The notes under the pieces: model-generated
Databases searched by the model: none
What the model was told of the DNA's origin: nothing
Seen by the model: only the letters and a program-made list of their open reading frames with translations
Part shown: positions 5,272-64,000 of the stretch, piece after piece
Numbering within the stretch: position 1 is the first letter of the stretch
Layout: every line of letters starts with the position of its first letter
NCBI GenBank assembly: GCA_000002445.1
Contig: CP000071.1
Coordinates: forward strand, 576,001-640,000
From: Trypanosoma brucei
Taxonomy: Eukaryota
Direction: 5' to 3'
DNA: 64,000 bases
Made by a program: the position numbers and the translations under genes

Positions 5272-5298
5272 CGAACCCTTTCTTCTATATTTATTTCC

Positions 5299-5350
5299 TC
5301 CTCCACTTCCACTTCCACTTCCACTTCCACTTCCACTTCCACCTCCACTC
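5299..5350. repeat. (CCACTT)n hexanucleotide tandem repeat (6 perfect + 2 degenerate units)
   Basis: ccacttccacttccacttccacttccacttccactt then ccacctccactc. Lies in the intergenic/5' flank of the 3691..5271 gene. Confidence 0.95.
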
Positions 5351-6232: not shown

Positions 6233-6264
<32 letters not shown>

Positions 6265-11574: not shown

Positions 11575-11665
11575 ATGCGTACAAGTACATGCAACTACAT
11601 ACATACATGTACATATATGCATATATATGTATATATGTATATAAATATTTATTTATATACACTTG
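11575..11665. repeat. Alternating purine-pyrimidine (CATA/TGTA/TATG)n low-complexity tract
   Basis: acatgcaactacatacatacatgtacatatatgcatatatatgtatatatgtatataaatatttatttatatac. Confidence 0.85.
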
Positions 11666-45145: not shown

Positions 45146-45976
45146 CTAATTCTTGAGTGCATCAAGGCGCTTCTGAATTGCCTGTTTTCTCCTTTCAAGA
45201 TGTTTTATGCGAAATTCTTCTTCAGTTGGTAACACGACATCAACAATGAAGGTTTCCTCAGCCATTTGGCTACGCCCAGGCGACGACTCGCTGCCGTGTG
45301 AATACACTGACCTAAGGTTACGCTCGGCCTCAGTTTCAATGCAGCGTAATAAGTCCTCGGAACCGCGTGAAGCAAGCTCCTCGCGGTAGAGAGTAGATGG
45401 TTTTGGCGCATCATCGTCGTCATCATCGGAATTCGATGAAGCATGTGAACCAGACTCCCAACCATCCTCTTCATTTTCCACATGGGCAACGACCTCCTTT
45501 GCATCGTCCCTTTTAGCCTCTGGTAGTCCAGCAGCGCACCCGAAGTAGATCTTTCGTGGAGCAGCCCTTCTGTGGGTTTCACCGTTTAGAGTGGCCAACC
45601 TGCGCTCCCATAAATTCTTCTTGGAAATTAGTTGATTTACTTCATCGTTTTTAGCGCGGACGACGACCTCGCCATGGGTTTCGATACTGACCAACTCAGG
45701 GTTCCGAAGTCGGGCAACCTTGTCTCCAATTTCTTGCTTGGTCTTGAAAATAACAAACTTCACAACATTGACATCGGCAGTTTCGAGTGGGCTAGAGGGA
45801 AGACTGCGTATTCCAAGGCTCGATAACCGCTTCTCATCAGCCTTGCGCTTCGCTAATCGGTAAAGGACGGTATTTTGTCTCTCTCTTTTCCTCGCTAATC
45901 TACCCTCGATTTCCCGCAAGTAGTCTTGCATACTATAAAAATACTGGAAATGAGCAAGTTGCGGATATATATGCAT
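45146..45976 (-). CDS. ISY1: Pre-mRNA splicing factor ISY1-like protein
   Basis: Collinear matches to ISY1: EVNQLISKKNLWERRLATLNG (cf. DEINKLLREKGHWEVRIKELGG), YFGCAAGLPEAK (cf. YFGAAKDLPGV), and a C-terminal basic helix ending RRKQAIQKRLDAL. Confidence 0.6.
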   Translation of the reverse strand: MHIYPQLAHFQYFYSMQDYLREIEGRLARKRERQNTVLYRLAKRKADEKRLSSLGIRSLPSSPLETADVNVVKFVIFKTKQEIGDKVARLRNPELVSIETHGEVVVRAKNDEVNQLISKKNLWERRLATLNGETHRRAAPRKIYFGCAAGLPEAKRDDAKEVVAHVENEEDGWESGSHASSNSDDDDDDAPKPSTLYREELASRGSEDLLRCIETEAERNLRSVYSHGSESSPGRSQMAEETFIVDVVLPTEEEFRIKHLERRKQAIQKRLDALKN

Positions 45977-46213: not shown

Positions 46214-48103
46214 TTAGTCGGCCTTTCCATAACGATATATCCATCGAACAAACAAAAAACAGGCCAAGAAGCCTACAGATCCAGCTGCTACCGAAAAGAG
46301 AAAACTTAGTAAACCCATATAACCGACATACAAAACTGTGGGAACCATGCCCTCTATTTTCACACTTCCCTCCGTGGCGTAGTAGAGAGTGTAGAGGAAC
46401 AGGTACAACCCTGAGCTTGATCCAATGAAAAACGACTTCCACCACCAACGGTGATCCTCTGCACAAAGAGAATAGTAAATAAAAACTATCGCGGTCTCTG
46501 CGGTAATAATGACAAATAGAACGCCAACTAGGAAGAGGAAGCCGAAAATATAGTAAAATCTGTTCAGCCAGATTGCACCCAAAATAAAATAAGTCTCGAA
46601 AAAAACGGCAGCAAAAGGCGGGACGCCTGCTGATAAAACTGCCAGTGTTGACGAATACCAAGGCTGGGCGGGTATGTGGCGCGGAATCTGGTTGTAATTT
46701 GATGGAACGGATATGGTTCCCTGTTTGAATCCCAACACAGCACCGAAGTACACTAGTGGGAGACTGACAAAGAACCAGATACATACCACCAAAACAACTG
46801 AAGAAAACGGAACGGCGGCACTACTCGACTGAGACCAAACGAGTAGGTTTACCACAAAAAATATGGCAAATGATGACGCCGGTACAATGGTCCCGGTAAG
46901 AAAAACATACATCCACTTTGTTCTATTCCATAGTTTCAGCAGACGCGCTGAAACATACCCACCAGTAACACCAAGGAGAGCAAAGCAAACGAGGAGTGCT
47001 GTGAAAAGGCTGCCGCGGTTTTGTGGGGAGAAAAAGCCCATGGTGGCAAACACGACGACGGTGAACGACATACCTAATAGTTGTACACCAGCGCCGGTAA
47101 AGCACGCAAGAAGCCACCCATTGGGTGGCGGCCGAAAAACATCGCGACACAGTAACTTCCAGCCTATGTCATCTAAATATTCCGTTTCATCTATGTCCAC
47201 ATCGGCTAACTTGCCCAGGTCGCGGCGAACGATACGGACCAGCAAGACAGCAATAACGATTGTGAGAAAGATGACGAGTAAAGTAGAGTTCATAATGGAG
47301 TACCAGTGGTTTTTTTCCTTGTGAACACTTAAATAAATATCCCACCTAGTAGACCATTTTTCTTTACTCTCGATCCACGAAACGCCATAGCTCCATATGA
47401 TCCGGTCGGTATCCGCTGGGAGTGGCGCTATGTTAGATGCAAGGTGACCGTCGAGCGGTTGTGCACAAGGCGCTTCAGATTTGTGCGCTACAGAAGAAGC
47501 CTCAGCAACAAATGTCAAAATACGGTACTTTTCTTCGCCTCCATTTTGTTTAACGTTGTCTGGCGTATAACTGATAGTAAAATGTATGTGGTTGTTAACG
47601 TAACTTCTCCCATCGCGCATAAAACCGAGTGGAACTCCCATTACAAAATTATTGTTCCCACTCGCCTCGGCAAGAGGAAGACCGTCCATGAGAAGGTTAA
47701 TACGGTAATTTTTCTCAATGGCCTTCTTAAGGAACCTCGTCTGCTTATCTTTGTCCACCCCTTTTTCACAGACAACGCTGCAGCTGACGTTGCTGAGCAA
47801 ACGGATGTTTTCATAAGGAGATGTCTTAATCCGATCGCCCATAAGGGAACCTCCAATATTGTTTGATTTCTTTGAGATAGGTTCCTTTGGGCGGCATGTC
47901 GGAAGGGCTTTGTAGTAGTCATACGGTAAGTGGGTTCTGAGTGACGTCAGAACATTAACCTCAATCGGTACCACCTCATTCCGCGCAAATGCATGAGGGT
48001 TGATGCTTGGTAAAAGACAATCAACACTTCCACAAACGGCAATCAACCAAACGGTTAAGCTAACAAGATGTCCATATAGATTGTTGAGAAGCATCGCCAT
48101 CAA
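46214..48103 (-). CDS. Transmembrane 9 superfamily (TM9SF/nonaspanin, EMP70) protein
   Basis: 629 aa. N-terminal signal and lumenal domain followed by 9 TM helices. Conserved nonaspanin blocks (DVFRPP, GAGVQLLGM, FLGYSPA-like). First gene of the minus-strand unit next to the strand-switch region. Confidence 0.85.
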   Translation of the reverse strand: MMAMLLNNLYGHLVSLTVWLIAVCGSVDCLLPSINPHAFARNEVVPIEVNVLTSLRTHLPYDYYKALPTCRPKEPISKKSNNIGGSLMGDRIKTSPYENIRLLSNVSCSVVCEKGVDKDKQTRFLKKAIEKNYRINLLMDGLPLAEASGNNNFVMGVPLGFMRDGRSYVNNHIHFTISYTPDNVKQNGGEEKYRILTFVAEASSVAHKSEAPCAQPLDGHLASNIAPLPADTDRIIWSYGVSWIESKEKWSTRWDIYLSVHKEKNHWYSIMNSTLLVIFLTIVIAVLLVRIVRRDLGKLADVDIDETEYLDDIGWKLLCRDVFRPPPNGWLLACFTGAGVQLLGMSFTVVVFATMGFFSPQNRGSLFTALLVCFALLGVTGGYVSARLLKLWNRTKWMYVFLTGTIVPASSFAIFFVVNLLVWSQSSSAAVPFSSVVLVVCIWFFVSLPLVYFGAVLGFKQGTISVPSNYNQIPRHIPAQPWYSSTLAVLSAGVPPFAAVFFETYFILGAIWLNRFYYIFGFLFLVGVLFVIITAETAIVFIYYSLCAEDHRWWWKSFFIGSSSGLYLFLYTLYYATEGSVKIEGMVPTVLYVGYMGLLSFLFSVAAGSVGFLACFLFVRWIYRYGKAD

Positions 48104-50550
48104 CCTGAAGAGGATCTAAATGCAGATTGCAGTGGTAAACGAAAGGAGTTGTTCATTCATAAACACACGTGTATTCACGTACGTATACAGGCCGACAAAC
48201 ATATCCACGGATATGTTCACGTATGCAAGTGCTAAAGAGAATTCATTTTATGAAACGAAAGGACATATTTACAAACAGAACGCTGCACCACAAGGGCAGC
48301 CGCATGAAAGACTCGAGAGTGTCGAAAGAAAGAAAGAAAGGAAACTAACTGTACCGCTCCGGTTTTATTACACAAGCTTGATGTCCAGTAACCACGGTGC
48401 ATGCATCACGCCAACAACACTACCTCACGAACGCCATATTTTCGAGAAGGCCTAACAACAATAAAAGGAGGACCTCCTGCCCAAATCGCAGACGCCGCCC
48501 TACGGTCCAACAACATCAGAAGGGGAGCACCTGTGGTTTCGACCTCCCACGAGGGCCATGGCGGTAGCATCGCTCCGCGACCTTTACATGCAAACGAAGA
48601 ACTTGCGTGTGAGCCAGGTGCCTGGGGAGTGTTGTCCTAGCTGCCTGCCCCCGGGGCTCTGCGCTTACTCACTCCGGCCCCCACGCTGTGTGGCTGGGGG
48701 AGGGGTCGGAGGGCTGACCTGGCCGCCCTTTTATCACTCTCCTCCATCTCCTCCTCCCACTTCCGTTTTGAAACTATCGCCCTGGAAGCGGCGTCGGCGT
48801 TACGGCATGCAAGATCCAAGTCGATCGGAATGCGACTGGGGCGATTCCCAGAAAAAAAAACCAGGCGGCACGAAGTAAAACTTCTTAAACAAAAGGGTCC
48901 CAAAGAGCAGTCAACCAGGTGGGGACATTCAAGATATGGCTTGCGAATGCATTTCTAGGCTAAATATGGAGCCACAGGGACATAATAAAAGCACTAGCTA
49001 GCACAATTTTGATACTTCGGTTGCGCTTGCTTGGTTAACCAGTTGGGCGCGTGGTGCCCGCCAGCTGGTTGGACGGGGTTCTATGGAGTCACCTGGCCGT
49101 CCGTGGAACAACCAAGGGTTTCTGCCCGTTGTACGCGATGCCACCCTTGTGGGGCTCAACTGCCGGGCCCAGTGGCGTTTTTGCTTAGAGATTTCGTCTT
49201 TATAAATGGAGACTCCTGTATCCCCTCCCCACGAGCGGCCGCCGTGGGTTGTGGGCCGAATTGTCGGTGCCCAGCACCCCGTCCTTCGGAATGCACCCAG
49301 AGGTCGTCAATTCCTTTGAGAAGGCTATGTCCGGCCTGGTGGTCGGTGTCCGGCAACCTGATTGGTGGCAGGGTCCGCCGTACTCGCGGAGGGGCACGGC
49401 ATGTACGCCACTTCCTTTGCACAAGCAAGGTGAGTGTTTTTCCCTTGCGTGCCCGTATGTGTTTATCGTGCTCATTTCTTTTTTACGATACTCATTTTTG
49501 TTGGGACAGGGGGGTTGGTGAGTAGATGGGTAGGCCCGTGTGTGGCTGAATAATGGCGTTTGTGTTTTTACCTTTATAGGTAATGTAGGAGGGGAACGAA
49601 TGATTGGACTGAGTTACAATGAAGAAGACTGCTCACTGTTCCGTAGGTGCTAGCGAACCGTGGTTTGAGATGCGTTTTTTTGTTTTTGCGTAGAATTCAA
49701 TTTTCGATGGTTACCGAGGGAGGTCTAGCTGGTGAGCAGTGATCTCGTCGCGACTATTGATGAAAACGACATCAGTTTTATTTTTGTACTTCGCGATCAG
49801 TAGCGTACACCTACGTTATTTATATCTTTATTCCTTTTCGTGGAACCTCGTGAATCCCTTGTGTTTCTGGGGATGGGGTCGTTCCTGCGTTGATGGCAAC
49901 TTGTGGAAGGTTCTTCGTATTTTCAATGATTGACCGTTTTGCGTTTTGATGTTGGGATCTCAGTGCCGAAGAACTGAATGAAGGGAAATCCTTGGACACT
50001 GATAAAGCATATCAATGGTGTTCCAACGGACGGTTAGTCATTTGCCTTTATTGTACATATTCTTTTTTTAAGGTTTGAAAATCTTGGCTGCCTCACCGTT
50101 GAAGTATCAAAGCGGGGCCACATTTGCTTTTGTTACTTATGTTGGATCAGATAGGTTCTGCTGTGTCGGAGCGTTTCACCCCGCCACCGTGCCCGCTTGG
50201 ATGCATGCTTGTCTCCATTGAGTGTGAGAGTCCCAGAAAATAAGGGGTTGGTATATGCTGACGGCACATACCGTTTTTACCTATTCTTTAAAATGTAAGC
50301 AGGGGTTTACCTGTTTCTTACTTACCTATTCTTAACGATGCTGCCTCCTCCCAACGTTGGCCGTGGACATATACTGAAAATATTTTGGAGGAGTGCGCAG
50401 TACAAGATGGAACTTTGGTTGCAGTCCTGCTGATCCATCCATATGCTGTGACAGTGTCAACCGATCTTTTCGGAAAAAGCACGTTGGCTATGACTATTTT
50501 TCATTTGCCATCCCCAACTCTTTTGAAGCCATTGTTGTAATCTAGTCTGC
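48104..50550. promoter_or_regulatory. Divergent strand-switch region, the probable bidirectional Pol II transcription start region
   Basis: All upstream CDS are on the minus strand and all downstream CDS on the plus strand. The 2.45 kb gap has no credible ORF. It contains a GC-rich island (~48540..49420), a G-run at 48696..48720, GT-rich plus-strand tracts at ~49428..49560, and CA-rich plus-strand tracts (GT-rich on the minus strand) at ~48400..48560. Confidence 0.75.
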
Positions 50551-50988
50551 ATGTTTTCGTTACGGGAGATACTTTCGCAACTTCCCTCCGACGGTGCAAC
50601 TAAATGGATACGGGTTGAGAATGTTAAATCCCCCATGTCAAGTTTGGATGTTTCCCAGTTGTTTCCCGATGCAGTGAGTTGGGATTTTTTGTCGAGTGTT
50701 CAAAGGACAGACTATCTCGTCACTTTTCGGAGTGAATCATTCGCTAGAAAAGCGATGCGAAGTGCATGCGGGTTTTCATACCTTGGTGAGAGGCTCAAGT
50801 TTTCATATGCGGAGCCTGGCGACATTGCAGAAGGCGCATCACCCGCGCGAGTGACAATTGCCCACCCCCGTCTATATTTGCTGCCTCCAGAGTTTTCTTA
50901 TGAGGAGCGAGTAGCTGAAGCAGATCGTATTATTGCATCTGTGAGCACAACCGATTCGTATAACAACGCCTGGGTAGATACCTACTAG
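50551..50988 (+). CDS. Small hypothetical protein with an RRM-like fold pattern (145 aa), first ORF of the plus-strand unit
   Basis: RVENVKSPMSSLDVSQLF...DYLVTFRSESFARKAM...YLGERLKFSYAEP resembles an RRM-like beta-alpha-beta layout. Weak; it could be non-coding. Confidence 0.35.
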   Translation: MFSLREILSQLPSDGATKWIRVENVKSPMSSLDVSQLFPDAVSWDFLSSVQRTDYLVTFRSESFARKAMRSACGFSYLGERLKFSYAEPGDIAEGASPARVTIAHPRLYLLPPEFSYEERVAEADRIIASVSTTDSYNNAWVDTY

Positions 50989-51235
50989 TTGGGCGCACTG
51001 CGGTTACAAGCCGTTTCCCCAATTTTTACCTTTTTGTTTCAATGCGTAACCACTTAATGCAGCAAAAGCGCTTGATCTACTTGTTGAGGCTTATAACCAC
51101 TGTGAATTACGCAATCAAGTAGTATCCACACCAGTCTAAGGTTGAGGTGGCATCTCTACTGTCTACCACTCCCCTCTTTAAAGCTGCCGCTGTTGTTGAT
51201 GTTTTCTCTTCATCTTTGGATACACGGCAAAACAA

Positions 51236-53739: not shown

Positions 53740-55044
53740 ATGGTGGTGGAGTACCTTGGTCCAGCAGACGTGCAGCGTTTGCTTGCGCTCCTTAGCGAAG
53801 GGAATTGTAAGTTTTCTTTCGTAGAGAAAGAATTTAAGGAAACGTTTTCTAAAGACACTTTCGCTAAGGTGTCAAGGGCCATACAACGAATGATTCATGA
53901 TATGATTGCCTCACCTGACGGTGTTGGACTAGTGTCATCTTTTTTCGTTCTTGATGTTATGTGCAAGATGAACTGTGAACAGGCGAAGTCAGCGTTTTAT
54001 GATGCGTTGCTAGAGTTGGAGCGAATCATGCGGCAAGACGTTTGCGTCATGGAGCAGATCAAGTATGCCTCAAAGGAAGCAAAGGAAGGAAGAAGAGCAC
54101 ACGAATCTGTTAATTCAGAGAGATACCGTCTACGTTCAGCGGTGAAGAGTTTTGCCTTTCGGTTACTTGCCAACAGGGTTGCGCCTGATGAAACACCACT
54201 CATGGCCATAAGTGACAAGCAAGAACAAATCGACACCGCCCTAAACGCATGGGAGAGCAACAGTATATGTCTCAAGGAACCCATTGCGGGTGTTGCAGAG
54301 GCGTGGACGCTAGAGGCAGAGAAAAATGCATGTGGAACCCTTTCCAGGATTTCTGCAACCCTTGATAATGGAGGACGGGCTGCGCTGGTACTGAAACCGG
54401 TAACACCCCAACTTCCTTCGTTGTCCCTGGTGTCTGGTGAGCTTCAGTTTCTGCTGCCGGCTTCTCCTCTAAACGATCTCCTTTTAATTAACAGTGAGGT
54501 TCCAACGGAGGAGTGGAAAACTGCAAAAAGAATGGTTGCCGCAGGTTGCAAGGGGCTACTTAATAAAGAGGAGCAGCAAAAATTGCTCCAAACACTTTTG
54601 GCAGGGGACGTCTTTGCGCGTGTTGGAATAAGCAGTGTGGTACTCAGTCGCATGGCCGAACACAATCCAGATGTTGCCGCCTCGCTAATACTGAAGCTTC
54701 CAGCCCAGGAGGCAAACCAATGCGTTCAGAGTATACTAAAGAGTTCTGTGCCATCGGAGCATGTAGAAACTGTCTTGTTACATGCTTCAAAAGTGCTGCA
54801 GCAAGCGAGCTTTCGTGCATACATTACCAACAAGCTTCATCATTTCAAAGAAAAGACGACACTATCCAACGAGGACAAAGATGAGGTGAAAAATTTTGTC
54901 AGGACTCTTCACCAGCTTTTAACAAAAGCGTCGAAAGAAAACAAGGAGTTATACGTTGCTGACACGCTAAAGACTGATATAACTCGACTTTGTGAGAGGT
55001 GTGATATTCCTGAAGTGGTTACGAGATGGGATGAACTAAAGTAA
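53740..55044 (+). CDS. Hypothetical alpha-helical protein (434 aa), possibly the CCR4-NOT subunit CNOT11-like
   Basis: Solid ORF. The CNOT11 suggestion rests mainly on the recalled gene order of the T. brucei locus, not on a motif I can verify by eye. Confidence 0.55.
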   Translation: MVVEYLGPADVQRLLALLSEGNCKFSFVEKEFKETFSKDTFAKVSRAIQRMIHDMIASPDGVGLVSSFFVLDVMCKMNCEQAKSAFYDALLELERIMRQDVCVMEQIKYASKEAKEGRRAHESVNSERYRLRSAVKSFAFRLLANRVAPDETPLMAISDKQEQIDTALNAWESNSICLKEPIAGVAEAWTLEAEKNACGTLSRISATLDNGGRAALVLKPVTPQLPSLSLVSGELQFLLPASPLNDLLLINSEVPTEEWKTAKRMVAAGCKGLLNKEEQQKLLQTLLAGDVFARVGISSVVLSRMAEHNPDVAASLILKLPAQEANQCVQSILKSSVPSEHVETVLLHASKVLQQASFRAYITNKLHHFKEKTTLSNEDKDEVKNFVRTLHQLLTKASKENKELYVADTLKTDITRLCERCDIPEVVTRWDELK

Positions 55045-55388
55045 CGAATACTTTCTTTGGTAAACAAACGATGAGTACAGTTCGATAAGGAGGCTGAGAT
55101 GATTTCCCCCCTGTCTGTTGTCGAATGCGCAGAAGCCAAACTGTTGCTCGGTGGTGTCTCAGGCAGCAAAGAGCGTCACATCCATGTCTGTTTAATCCCT
55201 TTCTTCATTCTACTTTTGTCACTTATTCCCCTCCAGACCTTACGTCAACGTGACCGTGGATGCATATATAAATATATACATAGTTTTGAAGGGCACATAA
55301 TTACTGGGCAGTTTTGTTTGCTCGTTCTATACTTGATTGTGAGTCCTGAAGGGACACACCAACAAAAAGACTTCTATTCTGTTGTGGC

Positions 55389-56303
55389 ATGATCGGCGAG
55401 TCAGAAGCATTCGTTAGTTTCGTATATTTAACACCTGCGGAAGGCCTTCCGTGTGAAACTGTTGATCGTTACCCGCAAGCTCAACTGAAGGAAGGAAGCT
55501 CCTGCTCTGAAACGTCTGCCTTGTCTAGGAGCGACGCTTCGGCTGAAGTCACGCCCGGTAAGGAGAATTGGGAAAGCAAGGTGTACGTAAAATTTTTCGA
55601 TGCACTTCGGAAGATAGCAAAAGTGCAGTGGTTTTCCGTTGAGGCTGGTACAAAAATGATGTACTTATACGAAATGATACGCGCCTGGCTCCCAGAGGTG
55701 ACTAACGTAGTGTGTTATACAGCCCATAGTGATAACTGGGGGAGACATTTCCCCCTTATCAAAGATGTGCTGTCACCTGGGACAGACGTTCCAGAAAGGG
55801 TCTTCTGCCAAGAGGTTTTTCTTCCACCGTGCAGAGATATGTGGAACTGGGGCATAGTTAATGTTGTTGTTATGCAACCACATGGTGATTTTACAACTGG
55901 CTATGTTCCCTTGGTGGTGCATGGATTGTTCATGCGCAGTAGGGAAACATTGGAGGAACAGATCAGTCAGATGTGCTGTACTTCGTCTGCAGAGATCAGC
56001 TACATGAGGATGCTGCCCTTGCTTAATTGTTCGATTCGTGACGGACTCGTAGAACTGACATCGTTTTTTCAAGAAAATGAGGAGGTTGAAGCTCTTTCAC
56101 AAGTGGCTGTTGTTTACCCGGCGCTTACAACTGGGGATTTGGTGTGTGCTGATGTTGAAAGTCGAGTAGGGCAAAGATACACTATGCAAGGCATGATAAA
56201 GCGTTGCCATCATAAAAATGGGATTGTTTGCTACGATGTGGAGGACACTGTTCTCGGTTACGTTGCAGAGGGCCTGACATGTGTCCAAGTTTTACCGCTG
56301 TAG
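55389..56303 (+). CDS. Hypothetical protein (304 aa)
   Basis: ORF co-oriented with the transcription unit, preceded by a CT-rich tract (55190..55250). No family recognised. Confidence 0.5.
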   Translation: MIGESEAFVSFVYLTPAEGLPCETVDRYPQAQLKEGSSCSETSALSRSDASAEVTPGKENWESKVYVKFFDALRKIAKVQWFSVEAGTKMMYLYEMIRAWLPEVTNVVCYTAHSDNWGRHFPLIKDVLSPGTDVPERVFCQEVFLPPCRDMWNWGIVNVVVMQPHGDFTTGYVPLVVHGLFMRSRETLEEQISQMCCTSSAEISYMRMLPLLNCSIRDGLVELTSFFQENEEVEALSQVAVVYPALTTGDLVCADVESRVGQRYTMQGMIKRCHHKNGIVCYDVEDTVLGYVAEGLTCVQVLPL

Positions 56304-56486
56304 GAAAACGGCGACAGTCAGTTGTTCTGCATAAGTTGTTACGTTATTTCCTTCCTCATTCATCATTTTTACTTACCCGTGTTTGTGGAATGGCTGTCAA
56401 ACGCACATGTCTAGTGCACTCTTTGCTCGTGCATTCGGAACTCTTTTTTCATTGGTGCTTCCGTGCACTGTAGGTAGGTTGAGGAC

Positions 56487-57920
56487 ATGCAAAATAAGTC
56501 TTGGGCCCTGCCTATCAAACAAGTTCCTGTTGTGGAGAAGCTTGACCGGTCTATTGTGTGGAACAATGTTCGCTTATGCTATGAGCAAAAGCTTTTCGGT
56601 CAGATCTCGTGCATTCGGTACAACAATGCTGGGACGGTCGTTGGTTGTGCCTCTACAAACCAGCTCTCCCTTTTACGAGTACCCCAGACAGAGGGCGTGA
56701 TTACTAACGAACAGCGCGAGAGGAAATGTTTCTCGCTTCGGTTCAGGGATGACGACAAAATGACTATTATGTCTGTTGACCAACGTGTTGTTATTCGGTC
56801 AACCGAAACGCTGTTCGAACGGCAGTTTCCTGGCCATGTTAGGGAGGTACGAGACGCTCTTTTTCTTGATCGCCGCAGCTTTGTGTCTGGAAGTGATGAC
56901 ACAACTATAAAACTCTGGGATGTTATGGGCGAGTGTGAACTAGCTGTGGGAAAAGCTCACACCGACTACGTGCGTTGTCTCGAAAACCGCTCACCAGGCT
57001 GCTTCTTCAGTGGCTCTTATGACCACGTTATCAACTTGTGGGACACACGGGCTGGGTTTTCGTGCCCGACTCAGACAAGCGGCCAAGCAGTTCCGAACCC
57101 TGTCGAGTCATTACTTTGCTTGGACACCAACCTACTGGTTTGTGGCGCGTCCGACCAAATAATACTATTCGATATCCGAAAAGGTCTTTCGTTGCCTCTT
57201 ACTCAGGATTCTTACCATACAAAGACCGTGGTTGCGCTTGGCTACTCCAAAAAATACAACGTGCTTCTCAGTGGGTCACTCGATCAACGAGTGAAAATAT
57301 TTTCCCTAGAGAGAGGATGCCCGGACCCTGTTGCCAGTAAAAAGTTTGACGCTCCGGTAACCGCGGTGGCGGTTCACCCTCGTTCGTCCGAATTTGCTGT
57401 GGGCACGGCGAGCGGCGACCTTCGTATCATGAAACTGGGAAGCGCTTCTGATGGAGACGAGATGGGTGGTGGGAAAGACGAGGAAAGTAGGGGGCGCCAA
57501 AAAGATGAGGAGCTCATAGCTATGAAAGTAAATGATGTGCGTCGTCAGCTTGTATCCTATCAGTACAACCGGGCATTGAAGACTGCGCTTTACTCTCGTC
57601 ATGCCGACGTCGTGGTTTCCACTCTTGAAGAACTTCTTCGCCGCGGGGCGTTGCACGTGGCATTGAGTGGTCAAAATGATAGGACGATAGCGCGCATCCT
57701 TCGTTTTGCGCTCGGTTTTATTGACACCCCACAATTCTGTGAGTCAATGATGGTCGTGTTGGACACGATCTTCGATATCTATGGAACGTGCGTGGGCAAA
57801 AGTATATTTTTGCATAGGGAACTGATGAAGGCCCATCGCCGGCTCGGCAGTGTCCTTGCAAACCTCCAAAGAATGGCGGGCACACTGAGTATAATGGAGT
57901 TAATAGTAAATGACGTATAA
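56487..57920 (+). CDS. UTP15: U3 snoRNP / SSU processome protein UTP15-like (WD40 repeats plus UTP15 C-terminal domain)
   Basis: WD repeats (SGSDDTTIKLWDV, SGSYDHVINLWDTRAG, SGSLDQRVKIFS). Collinear matches to UTP15: TDYVRCLENRSPGCFFSGSYDH (cf. [24 protein letters not shown]) and HTKTVVALGYSKKYNVLLSGSLDQRVK (cf. [27 protein letters not shown]). Confidence 0.75.
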   Translation: MQNKSWALPIKQVPVVEKLDRSIVWNNVRLCYEQKLFGQISCIRYNNAGTVVGCASTNQLSLLRVPQTEGVITNEQRERKCFSLRFRDDDKMTIMSVDQRVVIRSTETLFERQFPGHVREVRDALFLDRRSFVSGSDDTTIKLWDVMGECELAVGKAHTDYVRCLENRSPGCFFSGSYDHVINLWDTRAGFSCPTQTSGQAVPNPVESLLCLDTNLLVCGASDQIILFDIRKGLSLPLTQDSYHTKTVVALGYSKKYNVLLSGSLDQRVKIFSLERGCPDPVASKKFDAPVTAVAVHPRSSEFAVGTASGDLRIMKLGSASDGDEMGGGKDEESRGRQKDEELIAMKVNDVRRQLVSYQYNRALKTALYSRHADVVVSTLEELLRRGALHVALSGQNDRTIARILRFALGFIDTPQFCESMMVVLDTIFDIYGTCVGKSIFLHRELMKAHRRLGSVLANLQRMAGTLSIMELIVNDV

Positions 57921-58172
57921 GGAGCGTTAAACAGGAAGTAATAATCGTGGATTTGCGATGCACCTAGTTGAGTTCTACCCGTCACGCAGCCGTAAGACGT
58001 GGCGGTTCCCTAAGACTTGCTGCGAAATAGTTTTTCGCAGCCGCTTGTTTTTACTGCACCCATCAAACTGATTGCACGGTCTACTATGCTCTATTTAGGA
58101 GGACAATCAAAAACGATAAGGGGTAAAGTTACTTTAAAATAAAGACAAAGTATTGCTAAAGGGAAAAAGAAA

Positions 58173-58853
58173 ATGCTTCGCCGTTTCTCCATGTTGCCAT
58201 TATCTGGTGGCATTGCCCGCCGCTCCTTCTTCCGGACGGCACCACTGTTTAACCTCGACTATCAGGCATACCGAACAGCTACTGTACGCGAAGCAGCGCC
58301 TGAGTTCGCTGGAAAGGCTGTGGTGGACGGAAAGATCAAGGACATCAGCATGAACGACTACAAGGGAAAATATATTGTTCTCTTTTTCTACCCTCTTGAC
58401 TTCACGTTTGTCTGCCCAACGGAAATTGTTTCCTTCTCAGATTCTCACGCTGAGTTTGAAAAACTGAACACGCAAGTCATAGCCGTGTCCTGTGACAGTC
58501 ACTTTTCACATCTCGCGTGGGTTGAAACTCCCCGAAAAAAGGGGGGTCTGGGAGAAATGAAGATTCCCTTGCTATCCGACTTCACAAAGGAGATATCTCG
58601 GGACTATGGGGTGTTGGTCGAAGAACAGGGACTTTCACTGCGCGCTTTGTTCGTCATTGATGACAAAGGGATTCTTCGCCATGTGACCATCAACGATTTG
58701 CCCGTCGGTCGGAATGTTGACGAGGTGCTCCGCGTCGTGCAAGCGTTCCAATACGCCGATAAGACTGGCGACGTTATTCCTTGCAACTGGAAGCCAGGGA
58801 AGGAGACGATGAAGGTGGAAGCAGCGAAGGAATACTTTGAGAAGAATCTATAG
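58173..58853 (+). CDS. mTXNPx: Mitochondrial-type 2-Cys peroxiredoxin (tryparedoxin peroxidase)
   Basis: Peroxidatic Cys motif FTFVCPTEI and resolving Cys motif VIPCNWKPG. ~35-aa N-terminal presequence-like extension ([24 protein letters not shown]); 226 aa. Confidence 0.9.
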
Positions 58854-59126
58854 GAAATAACATCTTTCTGGGGCACCGGTGTTGGGGGAACTCTTGTCTC
58901 ACACGGGCATAAACTTACACAAGATTGAATATTTCTGTGTTAACTGTATCTTGGCTTGGCTATTCAAGCCATGGGTATGTAGTTTTGTTTTTGCCCCGGT
59001 CGCGGCCACCTACTGTGCCAGCTTGCTGGTGCAGCTACGATGGGGAGGGAAAAAGGTGAAAAAAATACCCAGTGAGAGGTGACAGTTTTACAGGAGCATA
59101 ATACAACGCCCGTATATATAAATACG

Positions 59127-59160
59127 TTTTTTTTTTCTTTTATTGTGTGTGTGTGTGTTG
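59127..59160 (+). promoter_or_regulatory. Polypyrimidine tract plus (TG)8 upstream of the cyclophilin gene (trans-splicing/polyadenylation signal region)
   Basis: T-run then ttttattgtgtgtgtgtgtgttg, followed by AG dinucleotides at ~59170..59180. Confidence 0.55.
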
Positions 59161-59331
59161 AGGTGTTGCTCTGAGCTGGGAAAGTGAGATGGGGGAACAA
59201 AACCCGGAGCGGCTATGCTAAAGAGCCCGCAAAATTTTCGGAAGTGTGGTCTGTTATTTGTGTCAACGTTTGATTTTTTGTATGCGTGTAACCTCTTTCC
59301 CCCCGTTTTATTTTCTTCAGGTAAGGAGTCA

Positions 59332-60120
59332 ATGCCCAAGGTAAGCGTCCCACCTAAGACGGAGCGCCACGGGAAGATCGAGGCGCCAGAGACTAATAAT
59401 CCCAAAGTCTTCTTTGATGTGTCTATAAATGAGAAAGCAGCGGGACGGATTGTTATGGAATTGTACGCGGACACTGTGCCGAGGACAGCGGAGAATTTCC
59501 GTGCACTATGCACGGGCGAGAAGGGTCGTGGGAAGAGTGGAAAGCCGCTGCATTACAAGGGGTGCATTTTCCACCGAGTTATACCAGGTTTCATGCTACA
59601 AGGGGGTGACATCACACGTGGAAATGGCACCGGTGGAGAGTCCATATACGGCACAACGTTTCGTGACGAGAGTTTTGCCGGAAAAGCCGGAAAGCATACC
59701 GGACTCGGTTGCCTGTCCATGGCTAACGCGGGACCCAACACCAACGGTTCGCAGTTTTTCATCTGTACAGCCAACACACCGTGGTTGAACGGAAAGCACG
59801 TTGTGTTTGGTCGTGTTACTGAGGGAATTGACGTGGTGAAGAGCATTGAACGGTTGGGTTCCGATTCGGGGAAAACGCGCGGTCGAATCATCATCGCGAA
59901 TTGTGGTGAGCTGCAGACGCAGAAGGAAGGTGCAGCCAAAAAGGAGAAGGTTAAGGCGAAGGAAGGAAACAATGCAGGGAAGCTGTCCACCATTGTCGAA
60001 GGGACCGGTGGAGCAAAGCGTCCACGTGAAGATGTGGAGGATTTGGAAGAACGGAAGAAACGCATCCGAGAGAAGAGGGAGAGGATAGCGAAACTCCGCG
60101 CCCAGGCGGAAGAGAAATAA
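59332..60120 (+). CDS. Cyclophilin-type peptidyl-prolyl cis-trans isomerase with Lys/Glu-rich C-terminal tail
   Basis: Canonical CYP domain ([10 protein letters not shown]...[20 protein letters not shown]...[13 protein letters not shown]...[11 protein letters not shown]). An in-frame upstream ATG at 59215 would add a 39-aa hydrophobic extension. A 10-codon uORF starts at ~59188. Confidence 0.8.
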
Positions 60121-60420
60121 GCGGGAAAAACCGACGTATGGTGGTGCTGTATGAAGGGCATTATCTTGAAATGAACACGCCACGGGGAGGGGGATATCAA
60201 GATCACGTTTAACACTTATTTGATTACTATTTCACCAGGCAACCTTCTTGACCCCTCCTTTTCACCTTAACAGTCTAAAGGAAAAGGATGTGGGAGGCAT
60301 CATCGCGATCGCTTTATTCCCACAGACCCTTTCCCACCTGTGACATCCATCTCTGTCTTTCCCTTTCCTCATCCGCATCATTCCTTTCTTTAGTAAATCA
60401 GATATATCATTGCTGGTCCC

Positions 60421-60981
60421 ATGCTGAGGGGAAGGTGGGGTATTTTCCAATGTACGTTGATATTCCGCGCGAGCTTTCATGATGTGAGGTCGAAGAAAAT
60501 GTGGGAGCGGCGACAAAGGGAGTTGCAAAAAGCTGGGGAGCAGATGGAATTAGATGAGGATGTGACGCCACCACCAAGTATACCGCGATCATCGAGGGTA
60601 GCAACCCGTGACGAAAGCTGTGAAGGGGATAAGGAAGCCATGTTGGCGCTTCTCCAAGAGCAATGGCAGCGCCGAGTTGCCCGCCGAGAAGCTTTTATCC
60701 AGTGGCAAGCAGGGCAGCGTGAAAAGGGTGCGGCACAGCGGCTGGTGCGCCAGGCCAAAACACAAGAGAAATTCAAGTCTCATCGTTACCACACACAAAG
60801 TGGGAGGATCATTTCTGTGGGCCTCGCCCGGGAAGACGGCACAAGTAGTAATTCTGACGCCTCTGTTGACTTGTACTCGGTGGGAATGTGCGGCTCCCAG
60901 CTGCGTTCTGCTGACTTTCTTGTCCAACCTGGTTCTCGAAACACCCATGGAACCGTCAACCTTGTTCTTCAGAAGCGGTGA
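60421..60981 (+). CDS. Hypothetical protein (186 aa maximal ORF; alternative start at 60499, MWERRQRELQ...)
   Basis: ORF co-oriented with the transcription unit. Gln/Arg-rich predicted helix. No family recognised. Confidence 0.4.
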   Translation: MLRGRWGIFQCTLIFRASFHDVRSKKMWERRQRELQKAGEQMELDEDVTPPPSIPRSSRVATRDESCEGDKEAMLALLQEQWQRRVARREAFIQWQAGQREKGAAQRLVRQAKTQEKFKSHRYHTQSGRIISVGLAREDGTSSNSDASVDLYSVGMCGSQLRSADFLVQPGSRNTHGTVNLVLQKR

Positions 60982-61160
60982 GGTTGCATTTGTCAAAGGG
61001 GAGAGAAACCACGGTCTGCCCCACGCTACTTGTAGCACTTTTTTCTTCTTCCACACTTTGTTATGTCGAAAAGAAGTGGGGGAAACTACACATATGTGTG
61101 TGCTACCTGCCGGAGGCTGCGTAAAGCTACAACGATGGACTATTCTTTAGCTTTAATACC

Positions 61161-61223
61161 GTTCTTGTTTTCTCTTTTTTTCTCGTGGCACTTCCCCATT
61201 TTTTTGCCCCTATTTTGTGGGGG
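61161..61223 (+). promoter_or_regulatory. Polypyrimidine tract upstream of the arginase-like gene
   Basis: gttcttgttttctctttttttctcgtggcacttccccatttttttgcccctattttgtg. Confidence 0.55.
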
Positions 61224-61306
61224 CAAAGTGATTTGGTGGCAGTTACTGTCATCGTGCTAACCACATTCTAAGCGCGACCAAAGTCAAGCTAACGTGCATA
61301 TATGGG

Positions 61307-62308
61307 TTGCACATGTTCTCCAAGTTCCTGATGAACGTTAAGGGTGTGACGCCCCGTGGGAGCGATTGGGCCAATCGACTCGGTCCTGTGGCTCTCTTTG
61401 GTTACGGGGCAGGCATGCCACGGCGGGCTCCACTCCTAGACTTTTTTCTTCAATCACCACGCGACTGTGACCATTACGCGGAGTTAACTATTCATGATAA
61501 GGGCCCAATTGAGTGCCCTCCTGAAACTGTTATGTTTATGCCCGTTTTAAATTGTGGTCAAATGTTGGATGAAGCAGCGGGAACAGAGACTCCCACAAGC
61601 GACGAGTGGTACCTGGGATCACTCGAGGCGTCAACGGAGCTGTTAGAAAAGGGCTATGTTCCGGTCAGCGTGGGCGGGGATGGCTCAGCGACGCTTTCAA
61701 TGGTTGAGGCGTACAAGCGACTGTTCCCATCTGACGACATTGTTATTGTTCACTTTTCGGCACGTCCATCTGTGAGCGACCCACGGTCGCCGCTGAGAGT
61801 GCTTTTGGATAAGGGGTTGCTAAAGGGCGTTGTTAGCGTGGGTAACCGTCAAGTGTCATCGGAGGACAGGAAGGTTCGGAAGCTTCATAAGATGTTTTAC
61901 ATGGATATGCACGCCATATACTCCAAGGGACTTTTTTGCATACGTGATATCAGGAATGACTACCCCGTTTTCATAAGCATTGATGCCAGCGTGTTAGACC
62001 CCGCGTTTGCCCCCGCCGTTGACAGCCCCGTTGCTGGAGGGCTCTCGACACGCGATTTGCTTCACATAATGAACGGCATCCGTGGACCCAAGGTGGTAGG
62101 AATTGACGTTTACGGCTACAACCCCGACCTTGATGTGTACAGGAAGGACAATGTCGGCCTTACCGCAATTGCGTTATCGAAAATAATAAAAGAGGGAATA
62201 CTTAAGGCATACAGCATATCGACTCACACGGAGGAAGAGGGGATGGAACGGGTTAAGATGCTACAGCGTCAGGGGACCGTCTCTGAAAATCCGTACCCCG
62301 ATCATTGA
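61307..62308 (+). CDS. Arginase/agmatinase-fold (ureohydrolase) protein with degenerate metal-binding motifs (arginase-like protein)
   Basis: Ureohydrolase fold blocks are present but the ligands are substituted. GGDGS replaces GGDHS. DMHAIYS replaces DAHxDxN. SIDASVLDPAFAP replaces SxDxDxxDP. 333 aa. Confidence 0.85.
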   Translation: MHMFSKFLMNVKGVTPRGSDWANRLGPVALFGYGAGMPRRAPLLDFFLQSPRDCDHYAELTIHDKGPIECPPETVMFMPVLNCGQMLDEAAGTETPTSDEWYLGSLEASTELLEKGYVPVSVGGDGSATLSMVEAYKRLFPSDDIVIVHFSARPSVSDPRSPLRVLLDKGLLKGVVSVGNRQVSSEDRKVRKLHKMFYMDMHAIYSKGLFCIRDIRNDYPVFISIDASVLDPAFAPAVDSPVAGGLSTRDLLHIMNGIRGPKVVGIDVYGYNPDLDVYRKDNVGLTAIALSKIIKEGILKAYSISTHTEEEGMERVKMLQRQGTVSENPYPDH

Positions 62309-62853
62309 GTCATTCAAGGCTGCGTCAGTTTCGGATCTCGCTGCGGTACCGCTTACCGCGATATCACTGTTTCGGGAGTGGTGTCGTATTATTTTTTTTT
62401 GTTACCGTTCTTGGACTTCGTGGTTCTTATTTTGCTCAGGTCTTACTTCCTTTCGTTTAGTGATCCGCGACTTCTTACTCCAGTAGCTACATCTTGTTAT
62501 TGGATCCATGCACGTTTACTCCCACATTTGCACAGGTTCTTACTCTTTCCCATTGTCTCCCTTCGTCCATCAAATTCAACTTTTTGTTAAACACCGGATA
62601 CTCTTCTGCTTTACTACCCACCTGCAATTATCATTCGATCCTCAAAATAGCCACGTAGTGATAAAACATTATTTATCAGTTTTCAGGTTGTGGAGGATTC
62701 AAGAGGAAATATTTAAGCACAAGGGACGGTGGAGAGAAGAAAGGTATAGCAATAGCATAGAGTAGGGTCATATACTCATATATTTCGCCAGGGAGAAACT
62801 AAGGGGAGGCCTGTAAAAGATATACAAGGGACACATCTTGAAAGGGGCTGCAA

Positions 62854-64000
62854 ATGGCCGATTCAAATGCTGTCGTGGAACACCGGGAGGAGTCTGATGT
62901 AAACATCCAACTTGAGCAACGGAGAAGTCAGGTGCGGGGCCTCGAGATCCAACTGACGAGAAAGGAGGCCGAGCTCCGCCGCGCAAAGGAAGAACAGGCG
63001 CTTCTGAAGGAGCTTCACGCGGTGAATGAGGTGACGCTTCGCAAGAAGCAGCAGAAGGAGTCCGATGGCGCTGGAAGTCGTCTCAAGATCCCTCGGGAGT
63101 CGTTGGATGAAATTCTTCGCCTCGAAGGTGAAATTAAATGTGCGAACAGGCGCACCGTTGAGCTGCAAAATGAGGCCAGCACAACGTCCGTCCAGCTGAA
63201 CGATGTGGAAAAAGGAATTGAAAGCATATGTAACCGTACAGCCCTGGTGAAGCAGGTAACCGGGTGGATAAGTTCCGGCAGTCAATCAAGCAGTGTAGTT
63301 GGAGTGTCGAGCGAGTGGATAATGAGAAAAAAGGTTTTGACGGAGCTTCAGGATGAACAGAACGCCATTAAGGCATTGACAGCGCTATTGGACAAGCAGG
63401 CTGAATTTTACACAAAGCGGCTGGAAGAACAGAGGACCAAGGACGAGGAATTCGCCGAGGCACAGCGCGTCCTTCGTGAGAAAACTGTTCAGTACGAAAA
63501 TCTGCTGGGTGAACTGAAGTCTTTCGAACGCCTTACGAAGAAGAAGGAGCGCCTTCTCGATACCGCTAGTGGGAAGGTGACCGATGATTACAAGACCGTT
63601 AAGATGATTGAGGGAGACAAAAAAGTTTTGTACGCCAACTTGTCCAAACTTCAGGAGGCAAATGTAAGGAACTCAAAGTCAATCCTCTCCCTTGAGATGC
63701 GTCTACGACAGCTGGAGACCAAACTCGAGGCAGTAAACCTCTTCCTGCAGCAGGTGTTCGCGGACGTTGAAGAAGAGGACGAGCACATCGAAAATATACC
63801 TGAGGGTGCCACTGAGGTACCACTTGAGCAGTTCGAGGAACTTTGCCGGGAGCTAGAACTCTCTCGTGCCACGCTTCTTCATCGTGAAGAGCAACTCAAT
63901 GCCGGTGACGCGAAGGTTGAGCAACTAGAGCGGAAGACCACAATTCTCGAAAATGCCATCGCTTCTCACGCTGTATCAGCTCAACTTCAGGTGAAGGGTA
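62854..64000 (+). CDS. Coiled-coil protein, 5' partial in window (continues beyond 64000)
   Basis: Open reading frame from ATG 62854 with no stop to the window end (382 codons). Heptad-rich Glu/Lys/Leu/Gln composition (LEQRRSQVRGLEIQLTRKEAELRRAKEEQALLKEL...). The ORF track omits it because it is unterminated. Confidence 0.6.
   Translation, partial: MADSNAVVEHREESDVNIQLEQRRSQVRGLEIQLTRKEAELRRAKEEQALLKELHAVNEVTLRKKQQKESDGAGSRLKIPRESLDEILRLEGEIKCANRRTVELQNEASTTSVQLNDVEKGIESICNRTALVKQVTGWISSGSQSSSVVGVSSEWIMRKKVLTELQDEQNAIKALTALLDKQAEFYTKRLEEQRTKDEEFAEAQRVLREKTVQYENLLGELKSFERLTKKKERLLDTASGKVTDDYKTVKMIEGDKKVLYANLSKLQEANVRNSKSILSLEMRLRQLETKLEAVNLFLQQVFADVEEEDEHIENIPEGATEVPLEQFEELCRELELSRATLLHREEQLNAGDAKVEQLERKTTILENAIASHAVSAQLQVKG

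What the first reader, a model, noticed from the sequence alone, without database searches (positions are those of the whole stretch)
61307..62308. Arginase-fold pseudo-enzyme: ureohydrolase with its Mn-ligand motifs mutated
The ORF keeps the three ureohydrolase sequence blocks, but key metal ligands are replaced. GGDGS stands in for GGDHS. DMHAIYS stands in for DAHxD. SIDASVLDP stands in for SxDxDxxDP. A binuclear Mn cluster therefore cannot be built. This matches the arginase-like protein of T. brucei that was crystallised without metals. Its substrate and function remain unknown, which makes it a worthwhile target.
Basis: partly seen in the sequence, partly recalled or inferred. Interest (0 to 1): 0.55.

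Follow-up and report, generated by a model that had tools for sequence, protein, structure and literature searches.

The report
Known metal-free arginase-like protein TbARG
This gene encodes the already crystallised Trypanosoma brucei arginase-like protein TbARG, which has the arginase shape but has lost its manganese-binding residues; the finding is real but is a rediscovery, and the protein's function is still unknown.

Summary
The ORF is real. The true ATG is at 61313 (331 aa). Its product is 100% identical over all 331 residues to PDB 4RHI/4RHJ/4RHK, the T. brucei arginase-like protein TbARG, gene Tb927.8.2020 (Hai et al. 2015). So it does not merely resemble that protein; it is that protein.

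The third is wrong. DAHxD aligns with S149-A-R151-P-S153, not with DMHAIYS (198-204). The conclusion survives: five of six Mn ligands are replaced, and so is the conserved Glu (G268).

What I add:
- All 52 members of the TbARG-like clade keep at most 3 of 6 ligands. All 49 next-closest ureohydrolases keep the full set.
- The clade includes free-living kinetoplastids, so the loss predates parasitism.
- The gene changes more slowly between T. brucei and T. cruzi than any of its six syntenic neighbours.
- The clade has its own invariant polar residues (R189, D198, H251, R257).

It is therefore a selected, neofunctionalised pseudo-ureohydrolase and not a relic. The literature reports no arginase activity and no known function. 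Novelty: already known. Interest: low.

The parts
61313..62308 (+). Coding sequence of TbARG (Tb927.8.2020): 331 codons plus the TGA stop at 62306-62308. There is no intron.
   Evidence: ORF list. 100% identity over 331 aa to PDB 4RHI chain residues 21-351. Pfam PF00491 E 9e-32. Gene id from PMC3341325.
61307..61312 (+). In-frame TTG-CAC just upstream of the real ATG.
   Evidence: Sequence gggTTGcacATGttc. The PDB construct and all orthologues begin at MFSKF...
61161..61216 (+). Pyrimidine-rich tract (84% C/T, including a 17-nt pure C/T run at 61168-61184) about 100 nt upstream of the ATG. I infer that it is the polypyrimidine signal for trans-splicing of this mRNA.
   Evidence: Sequence and count. 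The function is inferred from general trypanosomatid gene structure (own knowledge) and was not tested.
61673..61687 (+). Motif 1, GGDGS (residues 121-125). G124 (61682-61684) replaces the His ligand of GGDHS.
   Evidence: Aligned to GGDH of 6VSU. Canonical homologues have His 49/49; the clade has Gly 37/52 and His only 2/52.
61757..61771 (+). True counterpart of DAHxD: S149-A150-R151-P152-S153. All three ligands (Asp, His, Asp) are replaced.
   Evidence: Aligned to LDAHPD of 6VSU and to DAHxD of canonical homologues. PDB variants S149D/R151H/S153D exist. S149 is S 41/52 and G 8/52 in the clade, against D 49/49 in canonical proteins.
61898..62008 (+). Residues 196-232, YMDMHAIYSKGLFCIRDIRNDYPVFISIDASVLDPAF. 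This is the most conserved segment of the clade.
   Evidence: Segment conservation is 0.77, against 0.55-0.69 for the other segments. D198 is 52/52 in the clade but variable in canonical enzymes. H200 is H/Q/N/Y.
61976..62002 (+). Motif 3, SIDASVLDP (residues 222-230). D224 is the one ligand kept, and S226 replaces Asp.
   Evidence: Aligned to SIDVDCLDP of 6VSU. 51/52 clade members keep at least one Asp at 224/226.
62105..62125 (+). DVYGYNP (residues 265-271). G268 (62114-62116) replaces the Glu that is invariant in canonical enzymes (D-V-V-E-x-N-P).
   Evidence: Aligned to DVVEFNP of 6VSU. The clade has G 51/52; canonical proteins have E 49/49.
62198..62305 (+). C-terminal tail, residues 296-331 (..STHTEEEGMERVKMLQRQGTVSENPYPDH). 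It is conserved in the clade, whereas canonical relatives have only 6-22 residues after this point.
   Evidence: Tail lengths are 30-41 residues in the clade members that reach the C-terminus (31-41 in the near-full-length ones), against 6-22 in canonical homologues. T306, E309, G321, Y328 and P329 are conserved at 87% or more in the clade.

Best explanation
The locus is the Trypanosoma brucei gene Tb927.8.2020. It encodes TbARG, a 331-residue protein with the arginase/ureohydrolase fold that has no binuclear manganese site and is not an arginase.

Shown here: five of the six metal ligands are replaced (H->G124, D->S149, H->R151, D->S153, D->S226), and only D224 is kept. The Glu that is invariant in active family members is Gly268. 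These losses are shared by the whole TbARG-like clade, which reaches free-living kinetoplastids. The gene sits in a conserved syntenic position. It is under stronger amino-acid constraint than its housekeeping neighbours. The clade has its own invariant polar residues.

From the literature: the protein crystallises without metal, has no arginase activity, and has no assigned function.

Inferred mechanism (my estimate is about 0.45, untested): the protein is a neofunctionalised, non-hydrolytic homo-oligomer. Its remodelled former active-site region, and possibly its clade-specific C-terminal tail, would bind a small ligand or a protein partner. That would make it a binding or regulatory pseudoenzyme and not a catalyst of guanidino-group hydrolysis.
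For: Identity: 331/331 residues match PDB 4RHI/4RHJ/4RHK 'Arginase' of T. brucei. P0001 is named T. brucei brucei 927/4. The gene id is in PMC3341325.

Ligand loss: alignments to 6VSU and to canonical homologues. Of 52 clade members, 0 keep more than 3 of 6 ligands, whereas 49/49 next-tier homologues keep H-D-H-D/E-D-D plus Glu.

Not an arginase, agmatinase or HutG equivalog: 54.9, 72.9 and 45.3 bits against cut-offs of 227.6, 174.3 and 229.

Selection: 78.6% identity to T. cruzi, the highest of 7 syntenic genes. dN is 0.135, the lowest of the 7 (peroxiredoxin 0.157, cyclophilin 0.168), with synonymous sites saturated. R189, D198, H251 and R257 are 52/52 in the clade and variable in canonical proteins; R247 is also 52/52 but is shared with most canonical proteins (39/49).

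Antiquity: a clade member comes from the free-living prokinetoplastid PhM-4 transcriptome. Another lies on a groundwater metagenome contig with the same cyclophilin / 186-aa ORF / ARG-like order.

Literature: lacks key residues, and T. brucei has no classical arginase activity (PMC3341325). Unable to convert arginine to ornithine (PMC5602898). Lacked arginase activity (PMC6522824). Inactive (PMC10820115). Functions of such metal-free arginase proteins are 'elusive' (PMC11271267).
Against: Nothing argues against the identity. Against the inferred binding/regulatory mechanism:
- No ligand or partner is known.
- I could not place the clade-invariant residues in three dimensions, because the tools return no coordinates, so their position relative to the old active-site cleft is unknown.
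- As I recall the abstract of Hai et al. 2015, the knockout had no growth phenotype in cultured bloodstream forms. The paper is not held in the library.
- Strong conservation fits an unrecognised metal-independent catalytic activity equally well.
Confidence: 0.9

Rival explanations
1. TbARG is a true enzyme with a new, metal-independent chemistry on an unknown substrate. It would use the retained carboxylate(s) at 224/226 and clade-specific His and Arg residues in place of the Mn cluster.
For: Very strong purifying selection. 51/52 members keep an Asp at 224 or 226. H147 is 51/52, H251 is 52/52, and His at 267 is 35/52. D198, R189 and R257 are invariant. Conserved sets of polar residues are typical of catalytic or binding sites.
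Against: No activity has been reported. Papers read here call the protein inactive or of elusive function. Positions 151, 153 and 226 vary freely (R/K/D/H/F.., S/T/R/L.., D/S/G/N), which is unusual for a catalytic centre. The spatial clustering of the invariant residues was not tested.
Confidence: 0.25
2. TbARG is the non-catalytic partner subunit of an active ureohydrolase paralogue. The model is MetCb, the metal-free subunit of the bacterial metformin hydrolase MetCaCb.
For: MetCb is a precedent for a metal-free arginase-family pseudoenzyme that works by binding an active paralogue (PMC11271267). Leishmania and free-living kinetoplastids have both an arginase and this protein.
Against: [quoted passage not shown] There is no second ureohydrolase anywhere in the 64-kb window (tblastn). 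By my recollection of the Hai et al. abstract, the recombinant protein forms homo-oligomers.
Confidence: 0.05
3. It is a cryptic arginase or agmatinase that acquires metal or activity only in vivo or in particular life-cycle stages.
For: Databases still name orthologues 'arginase' or 'agmatinase, putative'. PMC3341325 reported arginine-to-ornithine conversion by an unknown route when ornithine is absent. Engineered variants with 2-4 ligands restored exist in the PDB, and PMC11271267 says metal binding can be restored in such proteins.
Against: Only 1 of 6 ligands is present and the invariant Glu is Gly. Scores are far below the equivalog cut-offs. T. brucei extracts show little or no arginase activity. 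The labelled ornithine was later traced to serum arginase in the medium (PMC6522824).
Confidence: 0.03
4. It is a decaying relic: an ex-enzyme drifting toward pseudogenisation with no function.
For: Loss of the catalytic residues. No growth phenotype of the knockout in cultured bloodstream forms (recalled from the Hai et al. 2015 abstract; not read here).
Against: The ORF is intact. Identity is 55-83% across trypanosomatids and 32-45% to free-living kinetoplastids. dN is the lowest of seven syntenic genes. About 35 positions are conserved specifically in this clade. Synteny is conserved.
Confidence: 0.02

Closest known systems
TbARG, the arginase-like protein of Trypanosoma brucei (PDB 4RHI, 4RHJ, 4RHK; engineered variants 4RHL, 4RHM, 4RHQ; Hai, Kerkhoven, Barrett & Christianson, Biochemistry 2015, 54:458)
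   Same: Identical sequence, 331/331 residues. Same gene, Tb927.8.2020.
   Different: Nothing. The window simply contains this gene.
Kinetoplastid orthologues annotated 'arginase', 'agmatinase, putative' or 'agmatinase-like protein' (T. congolense, T. vivax, T. cruzi, Leishmania, Phytomonas, Angomonas and others)
   Same: 55-83% identity over the full length. Same G124/S149/G268 signature, same C-terminal tail, and the same gene order in T. cruzi.
   Different: Ligand positions 151, 153 and 226 vary. For example, Leishmania has D226 (IDADVLDP) and several monoxenous species have H151. No member regains more than 3 of 6 ligands.
Catalytically active agmatinase and plant-type arginase branch of the ureohydrolases (e.g. 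Arabidopsis arginase 6VSU, agmatinases 7LOL/7LBA, NCBIfam TIGR01230)
   Same: Closest active relatives by sequence (6VSU E 3e-15; TIGR01230 is the best NCBIfam hit). Shared fold and shared structural residues G121, G122, R179, D229, P230, A233, P234, G242, G243 and E294.
   Different: The active enzymes have the full H-D-H-D-D-D ligand set and the Glu. TbARG has 1 of 6 ligands and Gly. TbARG scores 72.9 bits against a cut-off of 174.3. Homology covers only residues ~100-296.
Leishmania arginase (PDB 4ITY), the genuine glycosomal arginase of trypanosomatids
   Same: Same superfamily and the same group of organisms (E 2.7e-8).
   Different: It is a different paralogue that is not syntenic and is absent from T. 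brucei (PMC3341325). It is active and Mn-dependent.
MetCb, the metal-free pseudoenzyme subunit of bacterial metformin hydrolase MetCaCb (PMC11271267)
   Same: An arginase-family protein that lost its metal-coordinating residues yet is functional.
   Different: MetCb acts in a heterohexamer with the active paralogue MetCa encoded next to it. T. brucei has no active paralogue, and none is in the window.

Membership tests
Ureohydrolase / arginase superfamily (Pfam PF00491) | Significant match to the family profile above the curated threshold | tested here: met
   111.1 bits, E 9.1e-32, cut-off 22; residues 54-294 match profile positions 47-276 of 280.
Ureohydrolase / arginase superfamily (Pfam PF00491) | Arginase alpha/beta fold | tested here: met
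Catalytically competent ureohydrolases (arginase, agmatinase, formiminoglutamase and others) | Six ligands of the binuclear metal site: His (GGDHS), Asp-x-His-x-Asp (DAHxD), Asp-x-Asp (SxDxDxxDP) | tested here: not met
   The positions are G124, S149, R151, S153, D224 and S226, so 1 of 6 is kept. 49/49 canonical homologues have the full set.
Catalytically competent ureohydrolases (arginase, agmatinase, formiminoglutamase and others) | Invariant Glu in the D-x-x-E-x-x-P strand. Its role in positioning the guanidinium group is from own knowledge of rat arginase E277. | tested here: not met
   G268 here. The clade has G 51/52; canonical proteins have E 49/49.
Catalytically competent ureohydrolases (arginase, agmatinase, formiminoglutamase and others) | Score above the curated equivalog cut-off of a functional family | tested here: not met
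   Agmatinase TIGR01230 72.9 against 174.3. Arginase TIGR01229 54.9 against 227.6. HutG TIGR01227 45.3 against 229.15.
Catalytically competent ureohydrolases (arginase, agmatinase, formiminoglutamase and others) | Measured hydrolysis of a guanidino substrate | not testable with these tools
   The literature reports no arginase activity (PMC3341325; PMC5602898; PMC6522824).
TbARG-like metal-free clade of Kinetoplastea | Full-length homology, including the first ~100 residues and the ~36-residue C-terminal tail | tested here: met
   17 representative clusters at E<=1e-30; the near-full-length ones align over roughly residues 1-331. The next tier (E>=2e-19) matches only about residues 80-300.
TbARG-like metal-free clade of Kinetoplastea | Signature substitutions: no His at 124 (Gly in 37/52), Ser/Gly at 149, Gly at 268; plus clade-specific invariant R189, D198, H251, R257 (R247 is also invariant but shared with most canonical proteins) | tested here: met
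TbARG-like metal-free clade of Kinetoplastea | Conserved genomic position: cyclophilin, then a small conserved ORF, then the ARG-like gene, then a ~420-aa ORF | tested here: met
   T. cruzi L001/L002. Downstream synteny in a Logan-assembly contig from SRR7085473, L003. Groundwater contig L004, partly: cyclophilin and a weak 186-aa-ORF match are upstream, but the ~420-aa ORF homologue lies about 7 kb downstream, not adjacent.
Pseudoenzyme partner of an active paralogue (MetCb type) | An active ureohydrolase paralogue in the same genome or locus to pair with | tested here: not met
   No second ureohydrolase in the 64-kb window. [quoted passage not shown] The whole genome could not be searched here.

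The most novel reading that the evidence does not exclude
The metal-free state is not a quirk of parasites. It is an ancient, pan-kinetoplastid neofunctionalisation that predates parasitism, being present in free-living prokinetoplastid and bodonid-like genomes. The clade has fixed its own set of polar residues (R189, D198, H251, R257, plus one obligatory Asp at 224/226) and a conserved C-terminal tail. Together these could perform a still undescribed metal-independent catalytic or metabolite-sensing function on the arginase scaffold.
Probability: 0.3. Interest if true: 0.55.

Novelty: already known. Interest (0 to 1): 0.15.

Why it matters
The finding itself changes little. The protein, its metal-free crystal structure, its lack of arginase activity and its gene knockout have been published since 2015, and reviews cite it routinely.

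Its biological relevance is already appreciated. Because T. brucei has only this inactive protein and no arginase, the parasite must import ornithine to feed ornithine decarboxylase, which is the target of eflornithine.

The open question is what the protein does. My comparative results sharpen that question slightly:
- The ligand loss is shared by every member of a deep clade that includes free-living kinetoplastids.
- The protein evolves more slowly than neighbouring genuine enzymes.
- A short list of clade-invariant residues is now available for mutagenesis.

Tried and rejected
1. I tried to read the primary paper by DOI and by PMC4303290. It is not held, so details of the knockout, the oligomer and metal reconstitution rest on citing papers and on my memory of the abstract.

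2. I searched for newer functional work with 'Tb927.8.2020', 'TbARG' and 'agmatinase-like protein' + Leishmania. Only the 2012 metabolomics paper and incidental citations turned up, with no functional assignment.

3. dN/dS against T. cruzi: synonymous sites are saturated (pS 0.78-0.82), so no ratio can be given. Only dN was compared across the syntenic genes.

4. Structure prediction and fold search were deliberately not run. A crystal structure of the identical sequence exists, and the tools return no coordinates, so the cavity could not be inspected anyway.

5. I considered D198-M-H200 as an 'offset' ligand pair. I rejected it because it aligns with a non-ligand stretch of canonical enzymes and H200 is not conserved.

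6. I considered a MetCb-like enzyme/pseudoenzyme pair. I rejected it for T. brucei because no paralogue is present.

7. The metagenome contig for P0041 returned no DNA because the file was too large. The organisms behind most Logan and JGI clade members remain unnamed.

8. A tRNA scan of the window found nothing.

Full report
**The object.** An uninterrupted ORF runs from 61307 to 62308 on the + strand. The first two codons, TTG-CAC, are an artefact of the bacterial start-codon rule. The ATG at 61313 gives a 331-residue protein beginning MFSKFLMNVKG. No other ORF of 60 aa or more lies within the gene on any frame; one at 61063..61260 ends upstream. A pyrimidine-rich tract (84% C/T, 61161-61216) lies about 100 nt upstream. 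This is what one expects of a trypanosomatid trans-splice acceptor region; that reading is an inference from general knowledge.

**Identity.** A search of all PDB chain sequences returns 4RHI/4RHJ/4RHK ('Arginase') at E 1e-226. All 331 residues are identical to chain residues 21-351; the first 20 chain residues are a tag. The large protein database gives the same sequence, labelled Trypanosoma brucei brucei 927/4 GUTat10.1. [quoted passage not shown] That paper is cited in PMC5602898, PMC10820115, PMC6522824, PMC11271267 and PMC6988801. The gene is Tb927.8.2020 (PMC3341325).

**Checking the three motifs.** Pfam PF00491 matches residues 54-294 at 111 bits. I mapped ligand positions in three ways: the HMMER alignment to Arabidopsis arginase 6VSU, a MAFFT alignment with a canonical bacterial agmatinase, and a 101-sequence alignment of 52 clade members and 49 canonical homologues.
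- Motif 1: GGDGS (121-125) aligns with GGDHS, and G124 replaces His.
- Motif 3: SIDASVLDP (222-230) aligns with SIDVDCLDP. D224 is retained and S226 replaces Asp.
The real counterpart of L-D-A-H-P-D is F-S149-A-R151-P-S153.

The PDB confirms the motif 2 placement independently. The deposited engineered variants of this protein are S149D/S153D (4RHQ), S149D/R151H/S226D (4RHL) and S149D/R151H/S153D/S226D (4RHM), as read from the alignments. H200 of the supposed 'DxH' is H, Q, N or Y across the clade.

**How far the loss extends.** An exhaustive phmmer search over 1.84 billion representatives gives 17 clusters at E<=1e-30; the near-full-length ones align over essentially the whole protein. The score then drops sharply to E of about 1e-19, where hits cover only about residues 80-300.

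Across 52 sequences of the full-length clade, the number of canonical ligands retained is 0 (1 sequence), 1 (31), 2 (18) or 3 (2), and never more. All 49 next-tier proteins have H-D-H-D/E-D-D and the Glu. The individual positions behave as follows:
- Position 149 is S (41) or G (8).
- Position 268 is G in 51/52.
- Position 124 is G in 37/52.
- Positions 151, 153 and 226 vary freely.
- 51/52 keep at least one Asp at 224/226.

The clade also has about 35 positions conserved at 85% or more that are not conserved in canonical enzymes. These include R189, D198, H251 and R257, which are invariant at 52/52; R247 is invariant too but is shared with most canonical proteins (39/49). There is also a conserved C-terminal tail of about 36 residues, against 6-22 residues in canonical relatives.

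**Taxonomic reach.** Named orthologues cover Trypanosoma, Leishmania, Porcisia, Novymonas, Phytomonas, Herpetomonas, Angomonas and Strigomonas at 65-83% identity. A 32%-identical member (P0062) carries the EukProt label PhM_4. PhM-4 is Papus ankaliazontas, a free-living marine prokinetoplastid (PMC7052976, PMC7859406). That culture was fed a free-living bodonid, so either way the source is a free-living kinetoplastid. A roughly 40-46%-identical member (P0052) lies on a 28-kb groundwater metagenome contig (L004). Nearly all genes on that contig are on one strand, and cyclophilin and a weak homologue of the 186-aa ORF sit upstream of it. A 57%-identical member (P0035, L003) has the same downstream neighbours as in T. 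cruzi. The ligand loss therefore predates trypanosomatid parasitism. This is a modest extension of the published picture, which spoke of 'parasitic orthologues' (my recollection of the abstract).

**Selection.** The T. cruzi locus (L002) has the same gene order as the window: a 434-aa ORF, a 304-aa ORF, a UTP15-like WD40 protein, a peroxiredoxin, a cyclophilin, a 186-aa ORF, TbARG, then a ~420-aa ORF. TbARG is the most conserved of the seven comparable pairs, at 78.6% identity against 76.0% for the peroxiredoxin, about 68% for the cyclophilin, and as low as 46% for others. It also has the lowest non-synonymous divergence, dN 0.135 against 0.157-0.516. Synonymous sites are saturated (pS about 0.8), so dN/dS cannot be given as a number but must be far below 1. 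This excludes a decaying relic.

**What it is not.** It falls far below the curated thresholds of the agmatinase, arginase and formimidoylglutamase equivalog models. Agmatinase is the nearest, and plant-type arginase and agmatinase structures are the nearest active PDB relatives. This suggests an agmatinase-like ancestor, which is an inference. The literature is consistent:
- The protein lacks key residues, and T. brucei extracts show little or no arginase activity (PMC3341325).
- It cannot convert arginine to ornithine (PMC5602898).
- Labelled ornithine once attributed to the parasite comes from serum arginase (PMC6522824).
- Reviews call it inactive (PMC10820115).
- The metformin-hydrolase paper lists it among metal-free arginase-family pseudoenzymes whose functions are 'elusive' (PMC11271267).

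**How it most likely works.**
- Shown: there is no metal site and no guanidinium-clamping Glu. The fold is preserved. Clade-specific constraint is strong and ancient.
- Inferred: the protein has been re-used for something other than metal-dependent hydrolysis of guanidino compounds.

I favour a non-catalytic binding or regulatory role for the homo-oligomer, at about 0.45. Three observations support this. The former ligand positions 151, 153 and 226 drift freely, which is unusual for a catalytic centre. Other residues and a new C-terminal tail are frozen. No activity has surfaced in a decade.

A new metal-independent enzyme activity is the main rival, at about 0.25. A MetCb-like partnership with an active paralogue is unlikely. 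T. brucei and T. cruzi keep this gene although arginase occurs only in Leishmaniinae among trypanosomatids, and no second ureohydrolase is present in the window.

**Verdict.** The object is an already published, crystallised protein of still unknown function. Novelty: already known. Interest: low (0.15). The comparative additions are the clade-wide ligand census, the presence in free-living kinetoplastids, the slowest evolution in its syntenic block, and the list of clade-invariant residues. These are useful for anyone pursuing the function, but they do not change the category.

Noticed in passing
window 48104-51235: All long ORFs from 3.7 to 48.1 kb are on the minus strand, and all from 51.2 kb onward are on the plus strand. 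The GC skew changes sign at about 48 kb. This looks like a divergent strand-switch region between two polycistronic units. Its ~3 kb interior was not examined.
   Followed up: no
window 53740-63999 (+); L001/L002 (T. cruzi): The plus-strand unit around TbARG keeps its gene order in T. cruzi: a 434-aa ORF (weak CNOT11 match), a 304-aa ORF, a UTP15-like WD40 protein (56487-57920), a peroxiredoxin (58173-58853), a cyclophilin (59215-60120), a 186-aa ORF, TbARG, and a ~420-aa ORF that runs off the window end at 62854-63999.
   Followed up: partly
window 60421-60981 (+) and 62854-63999 (+): Two conserved ORFs flank TbARG and have no Pfam match. The 186-aa ORF is 46% identical to T. cruzi, is detectable next to the ARG-like gene on the Logan contig L003 (32% identity), and gives only a weak 54-residue match on the groundwater contig L004. 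The downstream ORF is 64% identical to T. cruzi and 39% to L003. Their functions are unknown.
   Followed up: partly
L004 (ENA ERZ1292630, Hainich groundwater metagenome contig, 28 kb), gene at 10001-11119: A 65% GC contig with nearly all genes on one strand. It carries a TbARG-like gene with cyclophilin and a weak 186-aa-ORF match upstream, in the same order as in T. brucei, while the ~420-aa ORF homologue lies about 7 kb downstream. It appears to be a fragment of a free-living kinetoplastid genome in a 0.2-um-filter groundwater sample.
   Followed up: partly
window 1-14000: GC content is lower and patchy here (0.37-0.46, with one 0.52 block), compared with about 0.52 at 14-32 kb. The cause is unknown.
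   Followed up: no
window 21457-27648 (-): A very long ORF of 2063 aa. Others on the minus strand include EMP70 (46214-48103) and an Isy1-like splicing factor (45146-45976). The 2063-aa ORF was not analysed.
   Followed up: no
TbARG residue 267 (window 62111-62113): T. brucei has Tyr at a position next to G268 where 35 of 52 clade members, including all other Trypanosoma species sampled, have His (DxHGY). This is a lineage-specific change in an otherwise conserved motif. Its significance is unknown.
   Followed up: partly
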